From: a virus
Length of the DNA stretch: 11,933 bases
Virus genome (UHGV): UHGV-0293518
Strand: one strand, 5' to 3'
The notes below the pieces were generated by a model that did no database searches, was not told the DNA's origin, and saw nothing but the letters and a program-made list of their open reading frames with translations. Position 1 is the first letter of the stretch. Each line of letters begins with the position of its first letter. The position numbers and the translations under genes are program-made. Below, piece after piece: positions 1 through 3,154 of this stretch.

Positions 1-362
1 CTTAACTGATATCCCTTTTAACGGATAAAGGTATTCAAGCCTGACACATCATGCGCTGTATCGTCGCCGTATTCCCGTATTAACAGAGACCGTAGCCCGA
101 CGGGGAACTCCTTCTGCGCGAGTGTGCGGGAATAATCAAAAACGATGCACACCGGGTTTTTACCGCGTTTATGGTTCGCGGGTTTGTCCCTCATGCTCGC
201 CAGTCCTGTGCGGGGGTGGAAGAAACAGGACACTTACACTGATTCTTGTGGGCACGATGCTATGCCTTTCTGGATTATCCCGATGCCATTCATGCAAGGC
301 GTTGTATCAGACGTTCGTCAGAGCTGTCAGGCTGACGGGTCCTCCCGGTGGGGTGGCCTGCC

Positions 363-383
363 ACGGGGCGGGAGCGTCGCGGA
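363..383. promoter_or_regulatory. Candidate cos site (cosN-like terminase nicking region)
   Basis: ACGGGGCGG...TCGCGG at 363-382 resembles the lambda cosN region (ACG-GGGCGGCGACCT-CGCGGG) as I recall it, with flanks matching and the centre diverged. It sits about 170-190 bp upstream of the small terminase start, the same geometry as lambda cosN to Nu1. Exact nick positions are not determinable from sequence. Confidence 0.4.
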
Positions 384-420
384 AAAAGGCTAGTTTTTGA
401 AATTTCATTCGTCATCACCA

Positions 421-457
421 CCACTGTAATAGATTGATATTACAGTGGTTTTATTTT
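421..457. repeat. Perfect 10-bp inverted repeat (CCACTGTAAT / ATTACAGTGG) with 8-nt loop, followed by a T-rich run; possible cosB-like terminase binding element or terminator
   Basis: Read directly: left arm 421-430, loop 431-438, right arm 439-448, then TTTTATTTTTATGG. Lies between the candidate cosN and the small terminase start. Confidence 0.5.
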
Positions 458-551
458 TATGGTGTCGATTTTGGTTGTTTTTTGTTCATCACTAACACCG
501 TTTGCCTAAAGTTGTTCGCGAGATGCATGTTTAAAACATTCTGGAGCGGGT

Positions 552-1046
552 ATGGATCGAGAGTTAAAAAATCTGACGCTGAATATCAGTCAACTGGCGG
601 CACTGTCAGGTGTACATCGCCAGACTGCTGCGGCAAGGCTGCAAAATCTACCCGTTGCAGGGGGGCATGAAAGCAACCTCAAGCTTTATCGGGTGGTTGA
701 TATTGTGTCGGCATTTCTGGCATTGCCACCGCCGGTTGCAGAAGGCGAAATGGACGCGCATGAGCGCAAAGCCTGGTATCAGTCTGAACGTGAGCGTCTT
801 AAGTTCGAACAGGAAACGGCACAACTCATTCCGGCCAGTGATGTCAGACGGGAGTTTGCCATCTGGGCAAAAGCGGTCGTGCAGGTGCTGGAGACATTAC
901 CGGATATTCTGGAACGTGACTGCGGTCTGCAGCCTGCCGCTGTGAGCCGTGTTCAGTCCATTATTGATGATCTGCGCGATCAGATAGCCCTGCGGGTGAC
1001 TGAAGCAGGTGCGGATGATGAGGAGGAATTACAGCAGGAGGAGTAA
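552..1046 (+). CDS. Terminase small subunit (DNA-packaging protein, not the lambda Nu1 sequence family)
   Basis: 164-aa ORF directly upstream of and overlapping (TAATG) the large terminase gene. GGAG lies 6-9 nt before the ATG. Has an N-terminal helix-turn-helix-like segment (LNISQLAALSGVHRQTAAARL) and an acidic C-terminal tail (DDEEELQQEE). Assignment is by position and architecture. Confidence 0.75.
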   Translation: MDRELKNLTLNISQLAALSGVHRQTAAARLQNLPVAGGHESNLKLYRVVDIVSAFLALPPPVAEGEMDAHERKAWYQSERERLKFEQETAQLIPASDVRREFAIWAKAVVQVLETLPDILERDCGLQPAAVSRVQSIIDDLRDQIALRVTEAGADDEEELQQEE

Positions 1047-3154
1047 TGCTGAATCAGGAAACCGCAAAGGCAGCACGAACCGATTCAGGTTATATCCTTC
1101 GCGCACCGAGACGAATGCGGGTTGCTGATGCCGTTGCTCAGTATATGCGGGTGCCCATGGGGGCAGGGAACTCAGTCCCGTGGGATCCGCTGGTGGCACC
1201 GTATGTTATTGAGCCGATGAACTGCCTGGCCTCGCGTGAATACGACGCAGTGATATTTGTTGGCCCGGCACGAACCGGCAAGACTATCGGCCTGATTGAC
1301 GGCTGGGTGATTTACAACGTGATTTGCGATCCTGCTGATATGCTGATTATTCAGATGACGGAGGAAAAAGCCCGCGAACACTCCAAAAAACGACTCGCCA
1401 GAACGTTTCGCGTCAGCCCGGAAGTGGTCAGTCGCCTGAGTCCGAACAAAAATGACAACAACGTTTATGACAGAACATTCCTTGCTGGTAACTACCTGAA
1501 AATCGGCTGGCCGTCAGTCAATATCATGTCCTCATCAGATTATAAATGCGTCGCGCTGACGGATTATGACCGTTTTCCGGAAGATATTGATGGCGAGGGG
1601 GATGCTTTCTCTCTTGCCTCAAAACGTACCACAACATTTATGTCCAGTGGTATGACGCTGGTGGAGAGTTCCCCCGGCAGAGATGTGAAGGATGTGAAAT
1701 GGCGACGGACTTCACCGCATGAGGCTCCACCAACCACGGGGATACTGTCGCTCTATAACCGTGGCGATCGCCGTCGCTGGTACTGGCCCTGTCCACACTG
1801 TGGTGAGTATTTTCAGCCCTGCGGCGATGTGGTTGCTGGTTTCCGTGATATTGCCGATCCCGTGCTGGCAAGTGAGGCGGCTTATATTCAGTGTCCTTCC
1901 TGTTCAGGACGGATTATGCCTGAACAAAAACGTGAGCTGAACGGACGTGGGGTCTGGTTGCGGGATGGTGAATCCATCAATGCGGATGGCAGTCGTTATG
2001 GTGATCCCCGACGCTCACGTATTGCGTCATTCTGGATGGAGGGTCCGGCAGCTGCTTACCAGACACTCTCGCAACTCGTTTACAAACTGCTTACTGCAGA
2101 ACAGGAATACGAGACAACCGGAAGTGAAGAAACACTCAAGACGGTTATCAATACCGACTGGGGATTACCTTATCTTCCCCGCGCCAGCATGGAGCAACGA
2201 AAAAGTGAACTGCTTGAGCAGCGGGCAGAGCCAGTTCCTTCCCGCAGTGTGCCGGATGGCGTTAATTTTCTTGTGGCGACAGTGGATGTGCAGGCGGGAC
2301 GTCATCGCCGTTTTGTGGTTCAGGTAACGGGCTATGGCAGCCGTGGCGAACGCTGGATTATTGATCGTTACAACATCACGCAGTCATTGCGCGGTGACAG
2401 CGACGGGGAGAGCCAGCGAATTGATCCGGCCAGCTATCCGGAAGACTGGGATGTCCTGCTGACGGATGTTTTTCATAAAAGCTGGCCGCTGGCCTCCGAT
2501 CCTTCTCAACAAATGCGACTGATGGCAATGGCGGTGGACTCCGGCGGTGAAGACGGGGTCACTGATAATGCCTATAAATTCTGGCGTCGTTGCCGTCGTG
2601 ATGGCCTTGGTAAACGTATTTACCTGTTTAAGGGCGACAGCATCCGGCGCGCAAAACTGATCACCCGTACATTCCCTGATAACACCGGACGAACGGGCCG
2701 ACGGGCGCAGGCCGCAGGTGATGTGCCGCTCTGGCTTCTTCAGACGGATGCACTGAAAGACCGGGTGAATAACGCGTTATGGCGTGACTCGCCAGGTCCC
2801 GGCTATGTGCATTTCCCTGACTGGCTGGGGAGCTGGTTTTACGACGAACTGACGTATGAAGAGCGGAGCAGTGACGGGAAATGGAGTAAGCCGGGTCGCG
2901 GTGCCAACGAAGCTTTTGACCTGATGGTGTATGCCGAGGCTCTGGTCATTCTGCATGGATACGAAAAGATCCGCTGGCCGGATGCACCGGAGTGGGCGAG
3001 CCGGGAAACCTGGCTGGAGTGTGTCCCGGACAGTATCGAACCGTCACCCTCACCCTCACCGGAACCGGTATCCACGCCTGTTAAAAAACAAAAACGGAAG
3101 AAAACAGTAACTGACGATGTTAACCCCTGGCTGACTTCCGGAGGATGGTTATGA
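1046..3154 (+). CDS. A: Terminase large subunit, gpA family
   Basis: 702-aa ORF. Walker A P-loop GPARTGKT at 1262-1285. CPHC...CPSC zinc-ribbon-like motif at 1790-1906, analogous to lambda gpA CPHC. Start overlaps the small terminase stop and the stop overlaps the next gene start (ATGA). Confidence 0.9.
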   Translation: MLNQETAKAARTDSGYILRAPRRMRVADAVAQYMRVPMGAGNSVPWDPLVAPYVIEPMNCLASREYDAVIFVGPARTGKTIGLIDGWVIYNVICDPADMLIIQMTEEKAREHSKKRLARTFRVSPEVVSRLSPNKNDNNVYDRTFLAGNYLKIGWPSVNIMSSSDYKCVALTDYDRFPEDIDGEGDAFSLASKRTTTFMSSGMTLVESSPGRDVKDVKWRRTSPHEAPPTTGILSLYNRGDRRRWYWPCPHCGEYFQPCGDVVAGFRDIADPVLASEAAYIQCPSCSGRIMPEQKRELNGRGVWLRDGESINADGSRYGDPRRSRIASFWMEGPAAAYQTLSQLVYKLLTAEQEYETTGSEETLKTVINTDWGLPYLPRASMEQRKSELLEQRAEPVPSRSVPDGVNFLVATVDVQAGRHRRFVVQVTGYGSRGERWIIDRYNITQSLRGDSDGESQRIDPASYPEDWDVLLTDVFHKSWPLASDPSQQMRLMAMAVDSGGEDGVTDNAYKFWRRCRRDGLGKRIYLFKGDSIRRAKLITRTFPDNTGRTGRRAQAAGDVPLWLLQTDALKDRVNNALWRDSPGPGYVHFPDWLGSWFYDELTYEERSSDGKWSKPGRGANEAFDLMVYAEALVILHGYEKIRWPDAPEWASRETWLECVPDSIEPSPSPSPEPVSTPVKKQKRKKTVTDDVNPWLTSGGWL

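What the first reader, a model, noticed from the sequence alone, without database searches (positions are those of the whole stretch)
363..457. Candidate cos region upstream of the small terminase
The motif ACGGGGCGG-(6 nt)-TCGCGG at 363-382 resembles the lambda cosN flanks as I recall them, while the central bases differ. Such divergence would be expected if cohesive-end sequence co-varies with terminase type. It is followed at 421-457 by a perfect 10-bp inverted repeat plus a T-rich tract, then the small terminase start at 552.
Basis: partly seen in the sequence, partly recalled or inferred. Interest (0 to 1): 0.5.

Follow-up and report, generated by a model that had tools for sequence, protein, structure and literature searches.

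The report
Lambda-type cos site of an E. coli prophage
The stretch is a genuine but ordinary lambda-style DNA-packaging (cos) site of a very common E. coli lambdoid prophage, and the inverted repeat beside it lies in the terminase-docking region around a host IHF bending site.

Summary
Window 337-551 is a complete lambda-type cos.

- cosQ is GGGTCCT at 337-343.
- cosN is ACG|GGGCGGGAGCGT|CGCGG, with inferred nicks at 365/366 and 377/378.
- A cosB-like region lies upstream of a DUF1441 small terminase (552) and a gpA-type large terminase.

The 12-nt end differs from lambda only at bp 7, 8, 9 and 11, the half known to tolerate change. GenBank records of phages cdtI and Tritos start exactly at this 12-mer. 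Hafnia phage yong2 is opened at the other nick. The virion-DNA assemblies of Ayreon and mEp460_4F5 break or are garbled here.

The inverted repeat is really 12+12 bp (420-431/438-449). It is not a repeated half-site. It is specific to this terminase subtype and imperfect in most relatives. It encloses the only perfect IHF consensus in the window (427-439), between R3-like and R2/R1-like repeats, where lambda has I1. A terminator role is not excluded.

The suggestion that the end sequence co-varies with terminase type is not supported. What co-varies is cosB with the TerS N-terminal domain.

The site occurs in about 39% of complete E. coli genomes. Low interest; new member of a known kind.

The parts
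337..343 (+). cosQ-like heptamer GGGTCCT (packaging-termination signal in lambda). It lies 22 nt before the top-strand nick, against 23 nt in lambda.
   Evidence: Nearly invariant in 70 distinct relatives, whereas homology breaks just to its left. Literature: the 7-bp cosQ is highly conserved (PMC4669245).
364..379 (+). cosN. The inferred nicks are between 365/366 (top strand) and 377/378 (bottom strand). The 12-nt 5' cohesive end GGGCGGGAGCGT is 366-377, flanked by the conserved CG dinucleotides.
   Evidence: The cdtI and Tritos records start at 366-equivalent and end in ...CCACG. The yong2 record is opened at the 377/378-equivalent. Only bp 12 (T59/G11) varies among 70 relatives.
378..398 (+). 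Conserved spacer block CGCGGAAAAAGGCTAGTTTTT (bp 13-33), the right flank of cosN. It is shared by all DUF1441-TerS phages, including a cyanophage.
   Evidence: 100% identical between cos types A, B and C.
412..420 (+). R3-like element TCATCACCA (bp 47-55), at the position of lambda R3 (bp 50-65). It is a direct repeat of 486-494.
   Evidence: the same scan recovers lambda R3/R2/R1 as a control. Invariant or nearly so among type-A relatives. Equivalent CATCATCATCA blocks occur in relatives.
420..449 (.). 12-bp perfect palindrome ACCACTGTAATA-GATTGA-TATTACAGTGGT. It is specific to cos type A.
427..439 (-). IHF core consensus TATCAATCTATTA (WATCAANNNNTTR), a putative equivalent of lambda I1. The adjoining T-rich tract 450-460 would be the A/T-rich element of the site.
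   Evidence: It is the only exact match in 11.9 kb, against 0.21 expected. The TTGAT core sits at bp 69-73 (types A and B) or 71-75 (type C) despite divergent flanks. The hypervariable positions 431-432 fall in the NNNN part.
450..460 (+). T-rich tract TTTATTTTTAT. It is either the A/T-rich arm of the IHF site or the U-tail of a terminator.
   Evidence: A T/A-rich tract is present at the same place in all relatives.
461..469 (-). R2-like element GGTGTCGAT (bp 96-104), inverted relative to R3/R1. It matches the reverse complement of R3 at 7 of 9 positions.
   Evidence: The match was counted by eye from the window sequence; at 9-mers with at most 1 mismatch the repeat scan did not list it. 462-470 is essentially invariant in type-A relatives. 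The homologous GATGTCGAA/GATGATGA elements are inverted repeats of R1 or R3 in types B, Gifsy-2, Fels-1 and VT1-Sakai. It pairs with R3 in the fold.
486..494 (+). R1-like element TCATCACTA (bp 121-129), a direct repeat of R3.
   Evidence: TTCAYCAYC or TTCGACAYC occurs at the same place in relatives.
399..761 (+). Divergent specificity cassette: cosB plus the first ~70 codons of TerS (the putative DNA-binding domain).
   Evidence: Window against PhiR40_1: 100% identity over 337-398, 68.6% over 399-551, 74.3% over TerS codons 1-70, and 99.3-99.5% afterwards.
552..1046 (+). Small terminase subunit (DUF1441 family, 164 aa). The start codon is at bp 187 from the left end; lambda Nu1 starts at bp 191.
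1046..3154 (+). Large terminase subunit of the lambda gpA type (ATPase and endonuclease domains).
   Evidence: PF05876 at 8.7e-72; PF20454 at 1.1e-85.

Best explanation
Window ~337-551 is the cohesive-end site (cos) of a lambdoid prophage of the mEp460/Ayreon/phi458 type, built like lambda's.

Proposed mechanism:
1. TerS (DUF1441) docks on cosB. cosB consists of R3-like 412-420, an IHF bend site centred on 427-439 with its A/T tract 450-460, an inverted R2-like element at 461-469, and R1-like 486-494.
2. Docked TerS positions the gpA-type TerL on cosN.
3. TerL nicks the top strand between 365/366 and the bottom strand between 377/378. This gives 12-nt 5' overhangs, GGGCGGGAGCGT.
4. cosQ (337-343) serves for termination at the next cos along the concatemer.

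It lies in the R3-I1 part of cosB. Its centre is the IHF core, and its outer arms are a lineage-specific, poorly conserved palindrome.

Shown here: the sequence identity of cosQ and cosN with lambda, their spacing, conservation patterns, record boundaries of relatives, and the co-divergence of cosB with the TerS N-terminus.

Inferred, not shown: the actual nick positions in this phage, TerS binding to the R-like elements, and IHF binding.

The confidence of 0.8 is for the region being the functional cos with these nick sites. The assignment of the palindrome centre as an IHF site is held at about 0.5.
For: 1. Match to lambda. cosQ, its spacing (22 nt against 23) and 16 of the 20 positions of ACG-N12-CGCGG match lambda, with all four differences inside the N12 cohesive end; the TerS start is at bp 187 against 191.
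2. Pattern of differences. Differences from lambda are confined to bp 7-12. Natural variants among 70 IMG/VR relatives (only bp 12 varies) and 120 metagenome contigs also fall almost entirely in bp 6-12 (one contig in 120 changes bp 2). This is the published rule for lambda-like cosN (PMC4669245).
3. Record boundaries.
   - cdtI and Tritos begin at GGGCGGGAGCGT and end in CCACG.
   - yong2 is opened at the other nick.
   - LLS is annotated with a 12-nt 5' end at the homologous site (PMC12315714).
   - Cr-LKS3, with the same TerS family, is reported to have 5' cohesive ends with a 9-bp cos site at the homologous place (PMC9303873).
4. Assembly breaks. The Ayreon virion-DNA assembly has chimeric filler replacing window ~372-382. 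The 4F5 record is opened 5 bp to the left and has a 3-nt loss inside the 12-mer.
5. Terminase type. TerL is gpA-type.
6. cosB architecture.
   - A repeat scan recovers lambda's R3/R2/R1. It finds the same three-part direct/inverted layout at bp ~45/95/120 in Fels-1, two of the three elements in VT1-Sakai, Gifsy-2, type B and Chris1, and the R3/R1 direct repeat in the window.
   - The only IHF consensus in the window sits between R3 and R2 and is positionally conserved across cos types.
7. Specificity cassette. cosB and the TerS N-terminus diverge together (68.6% and 74.3%) between flanks that are 99-100% identical.
8. Remote similarity of TerS to Nu1. A DUF1441 profile aligns colinearly with lambda Nu1, placing the type A/B differences QTAAARLQ/QTVVARLK on Nu1's recognition helix (the helix position is from PMC9026076).
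Against: - No virion-end data exist for this exact phage.
- How the cdtI and Tritos records were opened could not be checked, because Asakura 2007 is not held.
- No IMG/VR or metagenome contig starts exactly at the nick.
- TerS is not a Pfam Nu1-family protein. Its similarity to Nu1 is weak (hhalign E = 0.0033, probability 9.7%).
- The single-sequence structure model was too poor to show a winged helix-turn-helix.
- The window's R2-like element matches R3 at only 7 of 9 positions.
- A 7-9-mer repeat in 150 bp is not significant on its own (shuffles give a mean of 2.6 pairs).
Confidence: 0.8

Rival explanations
1. The palindrome plus T-tract (420-460) is a Rho-independent terminator on the + strand. 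It would stop non-antiterminated transcripts that cross cos from the lysis region before they enter the packaging genes. This is compatible with the region being cos.
For: - The consensus scan calls it terminator-like: a 12-pair stem with TTTATTTTTA just after it.
- The RNA fold is -22.6 kcal/mol, z = -5.0.
- Across 48 distinct type-A variants, 90.8% of cells stay paired and 3 pairs show double changes. The covariation score is 0.109 against 0.089 in shuffles (1 of 500 shuffles reach it).
- Mismatches are biased towards G.T, which is tolerated in + strand RNA (55 cells at 6 positions), over A.C (10 cells at 3 positions).
Against: - One such site is expected by chance in this 1.1 kb.
- The stem is A/T-rich, with only 4 G-C pairs.
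- The loop ATTGA is better conserved than the outer stem pairs, which is the opposite of what a terminator predicts.
- The hairpin energy drops to -0.6 to -8 kcal/mol in several relatives with an identical TerS.
- No equivalent hairpin exists in cos types B and C, mEp213, Fels-1 or CP-1639.
- The covariation control is known to be inflated by relatedness among sequences.
Confidence: 0.22
2. The palindrome is itself the TerS recognition site. A TerS dimer would bind the two CCACTGTAAT half-sites directly, replacing the IHF-bent R3/R2 arrangement of lambda.
For: - The left arm lies at bp 55-66, overlapping the place where lambda TerS contacts R3 (bp 55-63; PMC9026076).
- The palindrome belongs to the cassette that co-diverges with the TerS N-terminus.
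- The core ACTGTAAT/ATTACAGT is conserved in 63-67 of 70 variants.
Against: - Phages with a 100% identical TerS carry imperfect arms: position 422 is T in 55 of 70, and 447/448 and 431 vary.
- There is no third copy.
- Sister types with closely similar helix-turn-helix sequences have no palindrome there but share the R-like repeats and the TTGAT core.
Confidence: 0.12
3. The resemblance to lambda cosN is fortuitous, or the site is a dead relic, and the phage packages from another site.
For: There is no direct end mapping for this phage. The window is G+C-rich enough that GGGCGG-like strings occur.
Against: - The joint cosQ-cosN pattern has 0.00 expected hits.
- The site is invariant across hundreds of relatives, while the flanks are mosaic.
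- Near-identical phages (phi458, Ayreon, mEp460) make virions.
- The genome records of cdtI, Tritos and yong2 are opened at the nick positions of this site.
Confidence: 0.03

Closest known systems
Bacteriophage lambda cos (cosQ-cosN-cosB with R3-I1-R2-R1)
   Same: - The cosQ heptamer is identical.
- The nick-flanking bases ACG|...|CGCGG and bp 1-6, 10 and 12 of the 12-nt 5' end are identical.
- The cosQ-cosN spacing is 22 nt against 23, and the TerS start is at bp 187 against 191.
- An R3-like element sits at bp 47-55 (lambda: 50-65), an IHF consensus lies between R3 and an inverted R2, and a direct R1 follows.
- TerL is gpA-type, with a lambda-type portal and a gpW-like adaptor downstream.
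   Different: - bp 7, 8, 9 and 11 of the cohesive end differ.
- The R sequences are unrelated (TCATCAC-type against CGTTTCC-type).
- TerS belongs to Pfam DUF1441, not the Nu1 family.
- The elements are packed more tightly (R1 at bp 121 against ~150).
- The IHF core is embedded in a 12-bp palindrome that lambda lacks.
cos of phage cdtI and Tritos (GenBank AB285204, OV696610)
   Same: The first 33 bp of the genome are identical (GGGCGGGAGCGTCGCGGAAAAAGGCTAGTTTTT). The right end is cosQ...CCACG in both. TerS is DUF1441 and TerL is gpA-type.
   Different: TerS is only ~42-45% identical. cosB from bp 34 onward is unrelated, apart from the TTGAT core and the T-rich tract. There is no palindrome.
cos of mEp213 and LLS (putative 5' end GGGCGGCGCGCT; Feiss, cited in PMC12315714), and the Gifsy-1/Fels-1 type ends
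   Same: Same TerS family (56-58% identity). Same cosQ, flanks and bp 13-33 block. R-like CATCATCATCA / GATGTCGAA / TTCACCATC layout.
   Different: [quoted passage not shown] There is no palindrome.
lambda versus phage 21 packaging-specificity modules
   Same: cosQ and cosN are identical, while cosB and the TerS recognition helix diverge. Here types A and B are 100% identical over 337-398 and 68.6% and 74.3% identical over cosB and TerS codons 1-70 (concept from PMC4669245).
   Different: The specificity difference between types A and B is inferred from sequence only. No packaging tests exist.

Membership tests
lambda-like cos site (12-nt 5' cohesive ends) | cosN: a 12-bp staggered-nick site with a conserved left half GGGCGG and conserved CG dinucleotides flanking both nicks | tested here: met
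   ACG|GGGCGGGAGCGT|CGCGG at 363-382. The rule is from PMC4669245.
lambda-like cos site (12-nt 5' cohesive ends) | The 7-bp cosQ upstream of cosN at lambda-like spacing | tested here: met
   GGGTCCT at 337-343, 22 nt before the nick (23 nt in lambda). The pattern has 0.00 hits expected by chance.
lambda-like cos site (12-nt 5' cohesive ends) | cosB between cosN and the TerS gene, with TerS-binding R repeats (R2 inverted) and an IHF site | tested here: inconclusive
   The layout is present by sequence and shared with relatives. cosB co-diverges with the TerS N-terminus. Binding was not tested, and R2 is a weak match.
lambda-like cos site (12-nt 5' cohesive ends) | A gpA-type large terminase encoded immediately downstream | tested here: met
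   PF05876 and PF20454.
lambda-like cos site (12-nt 5' cohesive ends) | Virion DNA actually ends at these nicks with complementary 5' overhangs | not testable with these tools
   Only indirect evidence is available: the record boundaries of cdtI, Tritos, yong2 and LLS; the reported 5' cohesive ends of Cr-LKS3; and the assembly breaks in Ayreon and 4F5.
lambda Nu1-family small terminase | A match to the Nu1 family, or a demonstrable winged helix-turn-helix homologous to the Nu1 DNA-binding domain | tested here: inconclusive
   - Pfam gives DUF1441 only.
- There is a weak hit to a second TerS PHROG, phrog_57, at 8e-10.
- hhalign against Nu1 is colinear but weak (E = 0.0033, probability 9.7%).
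- There is no PDB sequence hit.
- The AlphaFold2 single-sequence model is poor.
IHF binding site | Core consensus WATCAANNNNTTR with an adjacent A/T-rich tract | tested here: met
   TATCAATCTATTA at 427-439 on the - strand is the only match in the window (0.21 expected). The A/T tract is at 450-460. The core is positionally conserved in types A, B and C. Binding itself was not tested.
Rho-independent terminator | A stable stem-loop followed directly by a U-tract, and conserved as such in relatives | tested here: inconclusive
   The pattern is met in the window. There is weak covariation. But it is degraded in many type-A relatives and absent in the other cos types.

The most novel reading that the evidence does not exclude
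The type-A-specific palindrome is a functional dual-use element inside cosB. In this reading it is both an IHF site and a + strand hairpin (a terminator or an RNA/ssDNA structure). It would couple late transcription or prophage insulation to packaging initiation. A related reading is that it defines a new, IHF-independent palindromic mode of DUF1441 TerS docking. More broadly, cosB plus the TerS N-terminal domain would be a freely exchanged packaging-specificity cassette, present in ~40% of E. coli genomes, which satellites could exploit.
Probability: 0.12. Interest if true: 0.4.

Novelty: new member of a known kind. Interest (0 to 1): 0.17.

Why it matters
The practical value is modest. The result lets the genomes of mEp460, Ayreon, phi458 and about two thousand E. 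coli prophages be opened at their true ends. It gives the cohesive-end sequence, GGGCGGGAGCGT. It also corrects annotation artefacts: ORFs called across cos, and Ayreon's chimeric 'late gene regulator'. The A/B/C cosB-TerS cassettes that share one cosN form a ready-made natural set for studying the packaging specificity of the uncharacterised DUF1441 small terminases. Conceptually, nothing departs from the lambda paradigm.

Tried and rejected
- Half-site search. CCACTGTAAT with up to 2 mismatches gives only the two arms near cos, and 10 hits in the window against 8.3 expected. The idea of a repeated half-site is rejected.
- Rfam scan of 1-1200 at E <= 1: no hits.
- PDB sequence search with TerS: only noise, E ~1.
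- AlphaFold2 on the single TerS sequence: mean pLDDT 66, with the N-terminal domain below 60. The model is unusable, so no fold search was run.
- Search for contigs that start at the nick. In IMG/VR (exact 28-mer, more than 120 contigs) and in metagenomes (21-mer, 120 contigs), none begins at bp 1 or bp 13; the closest begins 8 nt to the left. This is uninformative, because most are prophage or bulk assemblies.
- Papers not held: Vahanian et al. 2017 (survey of cosN) and Asakura et al. 2007 (phage cdtI). Whether they list this exact 12-mer or mapped the ends could not be checked.
- A full-text search for GGGCGGGAGCGT found no relevant paper.
- ORF 145-393, which runs across cosQ and cosN, matches only a PHROG of unknown function built from similar automatic calls, and has no Pfam hit. 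It is treated as probably spurious, so it was not used as a reason for a terminator.

Full report
**What the window is**

The window opens with about 360 bp downstream of a lysis cassette. The following genes come next:
- a 164-aa DUF1441 protein at 552-1046, which PHROG 141 calls 'terminase small subunit';
- a 702-aa gpA-type large terminase at 1046-3154;
- a gpW-like head-tail adaptor;
- a lambda-family portal.

The DNA is 98-100% identical to E. coli temperate phages phi458, vB_EcoS-569R4, mEp460 and Ayreon. These phages produce virions. The 231 bp spanning 330-560 occur in 2116 of 5426 complete E. coli genomes.

**Check of the observation**

The motif ACGGGGCGGGAGCGTCGCGG is at 363-382. 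Its chance expectation is 0.14 per window, even allowing two mismatches. Lambda's own record reads ...ACG|GGGCGGCGACCT|CGCGG... across its joined ends. So both nick-flanking sequences and bp 1-6, 10 and 12 of the cohesive end are identical. Only bp 7, 8, 9 and 11 differ.

The inverted repeat is real and longer than reported. The arms are 12 bp each, at 420-431 and 438-449, with a 6-nt spacer. TTTTATTTTTAT follows.

It lies 22 nt before the nick, against 23 nt in lambda. The combined pattern has 0.00 expected hits.

**Evidence that these are the genome ends**

1. The pattern of identity follows the published rule for lambda-like cosN. The left half and the flanking CG dinucleotides are conserved, bp 7-12 are free to vary, and cosQ is invariant (PMC4669245).
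2. Natural variation obeys the same rule.
   - Among 70 distinct upstream regions from IMG/VR phages with a 100% identical TerS, cosQ and 363-382 are invariant except bp 12 (T in 59, G in 11). Homology collapses just left of cosQ.
   - Among 120 metagenome contigs, nearly all variants of the 12-mer change only bp 6-12; one contig in 120 changes bp 2.
3. Genome records of relatives are opened at exactly these nicks.
   - cdtI and Tritos begin with GGGCGGGAGCGTCGCGGAAAAAGGCTAGTTTTT and end in ...GGGTCCT...CCACG.
   - Hafnia phage yong2 ends with its 12-mer and begins at CGCGGG, which is the bottom-strand nick.
   - LLS carries a feature '5' extended single-strand cohesive site GGGCGGCGCGCT' at the homologous place (PMC12315714).
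   - The cyanophage Cr-LKS3, with the same TerS family, is reported to have 5' cohesive ends with a 9-bp cos site GGGCTCGCG, followed in its record by CGCGGAAG (PMC9303873).
4. Two virion-DNA assemblies fail precisely here.
   - Ayreon has chimeric filler, including a piece of the TerS gene, in place of window ~372-382.
   - mEp460_4F5 is opened 5 bp left of the nick and lacks 3 nt of the 12-mer.
5. TerL is of the gpA type, which goes with 5' cos ends (the Ayreon authors reasoned the same way).

None of this is a direct end determination for this phage.

**What lies between cosN and the terminase gene**

I aligned ten phages with DUF1441 TerS, plus lambda. They share the following:
- cosQ and cosN;
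- a conserved block CGCGG(G)AAA.GGC.AGTTTTT at bp 13-33;
- a CATCAYCAYCA block at bp ~45-58;
- an A/T-rich stretch with a TTGAT core;
- an inverted GRTGTCGAA or GATGATGA element at bp ~95;
- a TTCAYCAYC or TTCGACAYC element at bp ~120.

An unbiased repeat scan recovers lambda's R3/R2/R1 as a positive control. It finds the same three-part direct/inverted layout in Fels-1. It finds two of the three elements in VT1-Sakai, Gifsy-2, type B and Chris1. In the window it finds the R3/R1 direct repeat TCATCACCA (412-420) and TCATCACTA (486-494).

The only exact match to the IHF consensus WATCAANNNNTTR in the whole 11.9 kb is at 427-439, between R3 and R2. Only 0.21 matches are expected in the whole window. 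This is where lambda has I1.

**What the inverted repeat is**

The palindrome is centred on that IHF core. Several observations bear on its role.
- The exact cosN plus bp 13-33 is linked in nature to three TerS types: A (the window), B (PhiR40_1) and C (cdtI). All three keep the TTGAT core at the same distance and keep a T-rich tract. Only type A has the palindrome.
- Within type A, where TerS is identical, the perfect palindrome is a minority form. Position 422 is T in 55 of 70 variants. Positions 431-432 are hypervariable and fall in the NNNN part of the IHF consensus. Positions 447 and 448 vary. The loop ATTGA and the T-tract are conserved.
- There is no further half-site near cos.

I therefore read the repeat as part of the R3-I1 region of cosB, not as a repeated terminase half-site.

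A + strand terminator remains possible.
- For: the pattern scan flags it. It folds at -22.6 kcal/mol, z = -5.0. In 48 variants, 90.8% of pair cells stay paired, with slight covariation. G.T mismatches outnumber A.C, 55 cells to 10.
- Against: the covariation control is inflated by relatedness. Several relatives have weak hairpins. No other cos type has a hairpin at this place.

**Co-variation**

- The same 12-mer goes with TerS that is 45-100% identical and with TerL N-termini that are 77-100% identical.
- mEp213 has a closer TerL (83%) but a different right half. Only the first ~220 residues of TerL could be compared.

What does co-vary is cosB with the TerS N-terminus. The window compared with PhiR40_1 gives:

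| Segment | Identity |
|---|---|
| 337-398 (cosQ, cosN, bp 13-33) | 100% |
| 399-551 (cosB) | 68.6% |
| TerS codons 1-70 | 74.3% |
| Rest of TerS and start of TerL | 99.3-99.5% |

A DUF1441 profile aligns colinearly but weakly with lambda Nu1 (E = 0.0033). This alignment puts the A/B differences QTAAARLQ and QTVVARLK on Nu1's recognition helix (residues 17-24; PMC9026076). This mirrors the lambda/21 specificity paradigm.

**Verdict**

This is a real, ordinary lambda-type cos. It is a new, unannotated member of a well-understood class, and its cosN is identical to the published termini of phage cdtI. The main claim is supported; the two secondary ideas are not. Interest is low.

Noticed in passing
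window 399-761 compared with L008 (PhiR40_1) 548-910: There is a sharp mosaic cassette. cosB plus TerS codons 1-70 are 68.6% and 74.3% identical, between flanks that are 99-100% identical. This suggests exchangeable packaging-specificity modules among E. coli prophages that share one cosN.
   Followed up: yes
L002 (Ayreon MF807953) 1868-2024: The Ayreon record carries chimeric filler at cos, including a copy of TerS-gene sequence equivalent to window 888-956. Its annotated 'putative late gene regulator' (44298-44582) spans this artefact, so the gene call is probably spurious.
   Followed up: partly
L001 (mEp460_4F5 LR595868) 1-20: The record is opened 5 bp left of the inferred nick. It reads GGGCGGGAGCG-CGG, which is 3 nt short inside the cohesive end. 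This is probably an assembly error at the physical ends.
   Followed up: partly
window 1-231: This stretch is 88-97% identical to unannotated DNA in ~270 phage records, mostly Stx-converting phages that otherwise have different packaging genes. It contains a 71-aa minus-strand ORF (18-233) with no Pfam or PHROG match. Its function is unknown.
   Followed up: partly
window 145-393 (+): An 82-aa ORF runs straight through cosQ and cosN. Similar ORFs are annotated as hypothetical proteins in several relatives and form PHROG 17397. It is probably a gene-caller artefact across the cos site.
   Followed up: partly
L010 (CP-1639) 542-556; L020 (VT1-Sakai) 500-515; L013 (Gifsy-2) 532-550: The distance between the conserved ACG and CGCGG flanks varies among relatives: 10, 11 and 14 nt instead of 12. 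Cr-LKS3 is reported with a 9-bp cos site. This suggests natural variation in cohesive-end length within the family.
   Followed up: no
L009, L013, L019 (Chris1, Gifsy-2, Fels-1), ~30 nt left of cosN: These relatives have AAGGTACTCC where the window and lambda have CGGGTCCTCC/CGGGTCCTTTCC. This may be a second cosQ variant, although the literature states that cosQ shows no natural variation.
   Followed up: no
window 377 (bp 12 of the cohesive end): There is a T/G polymorphism among otherwise identical cos sites: 59 T against 11 G in IMG/VR, and 95 against 15 in metagenome contigs. Mixed infections or recombinants would give mismatched cohesive ends, as has been studied for lambda and N15.
   Followed up: partly
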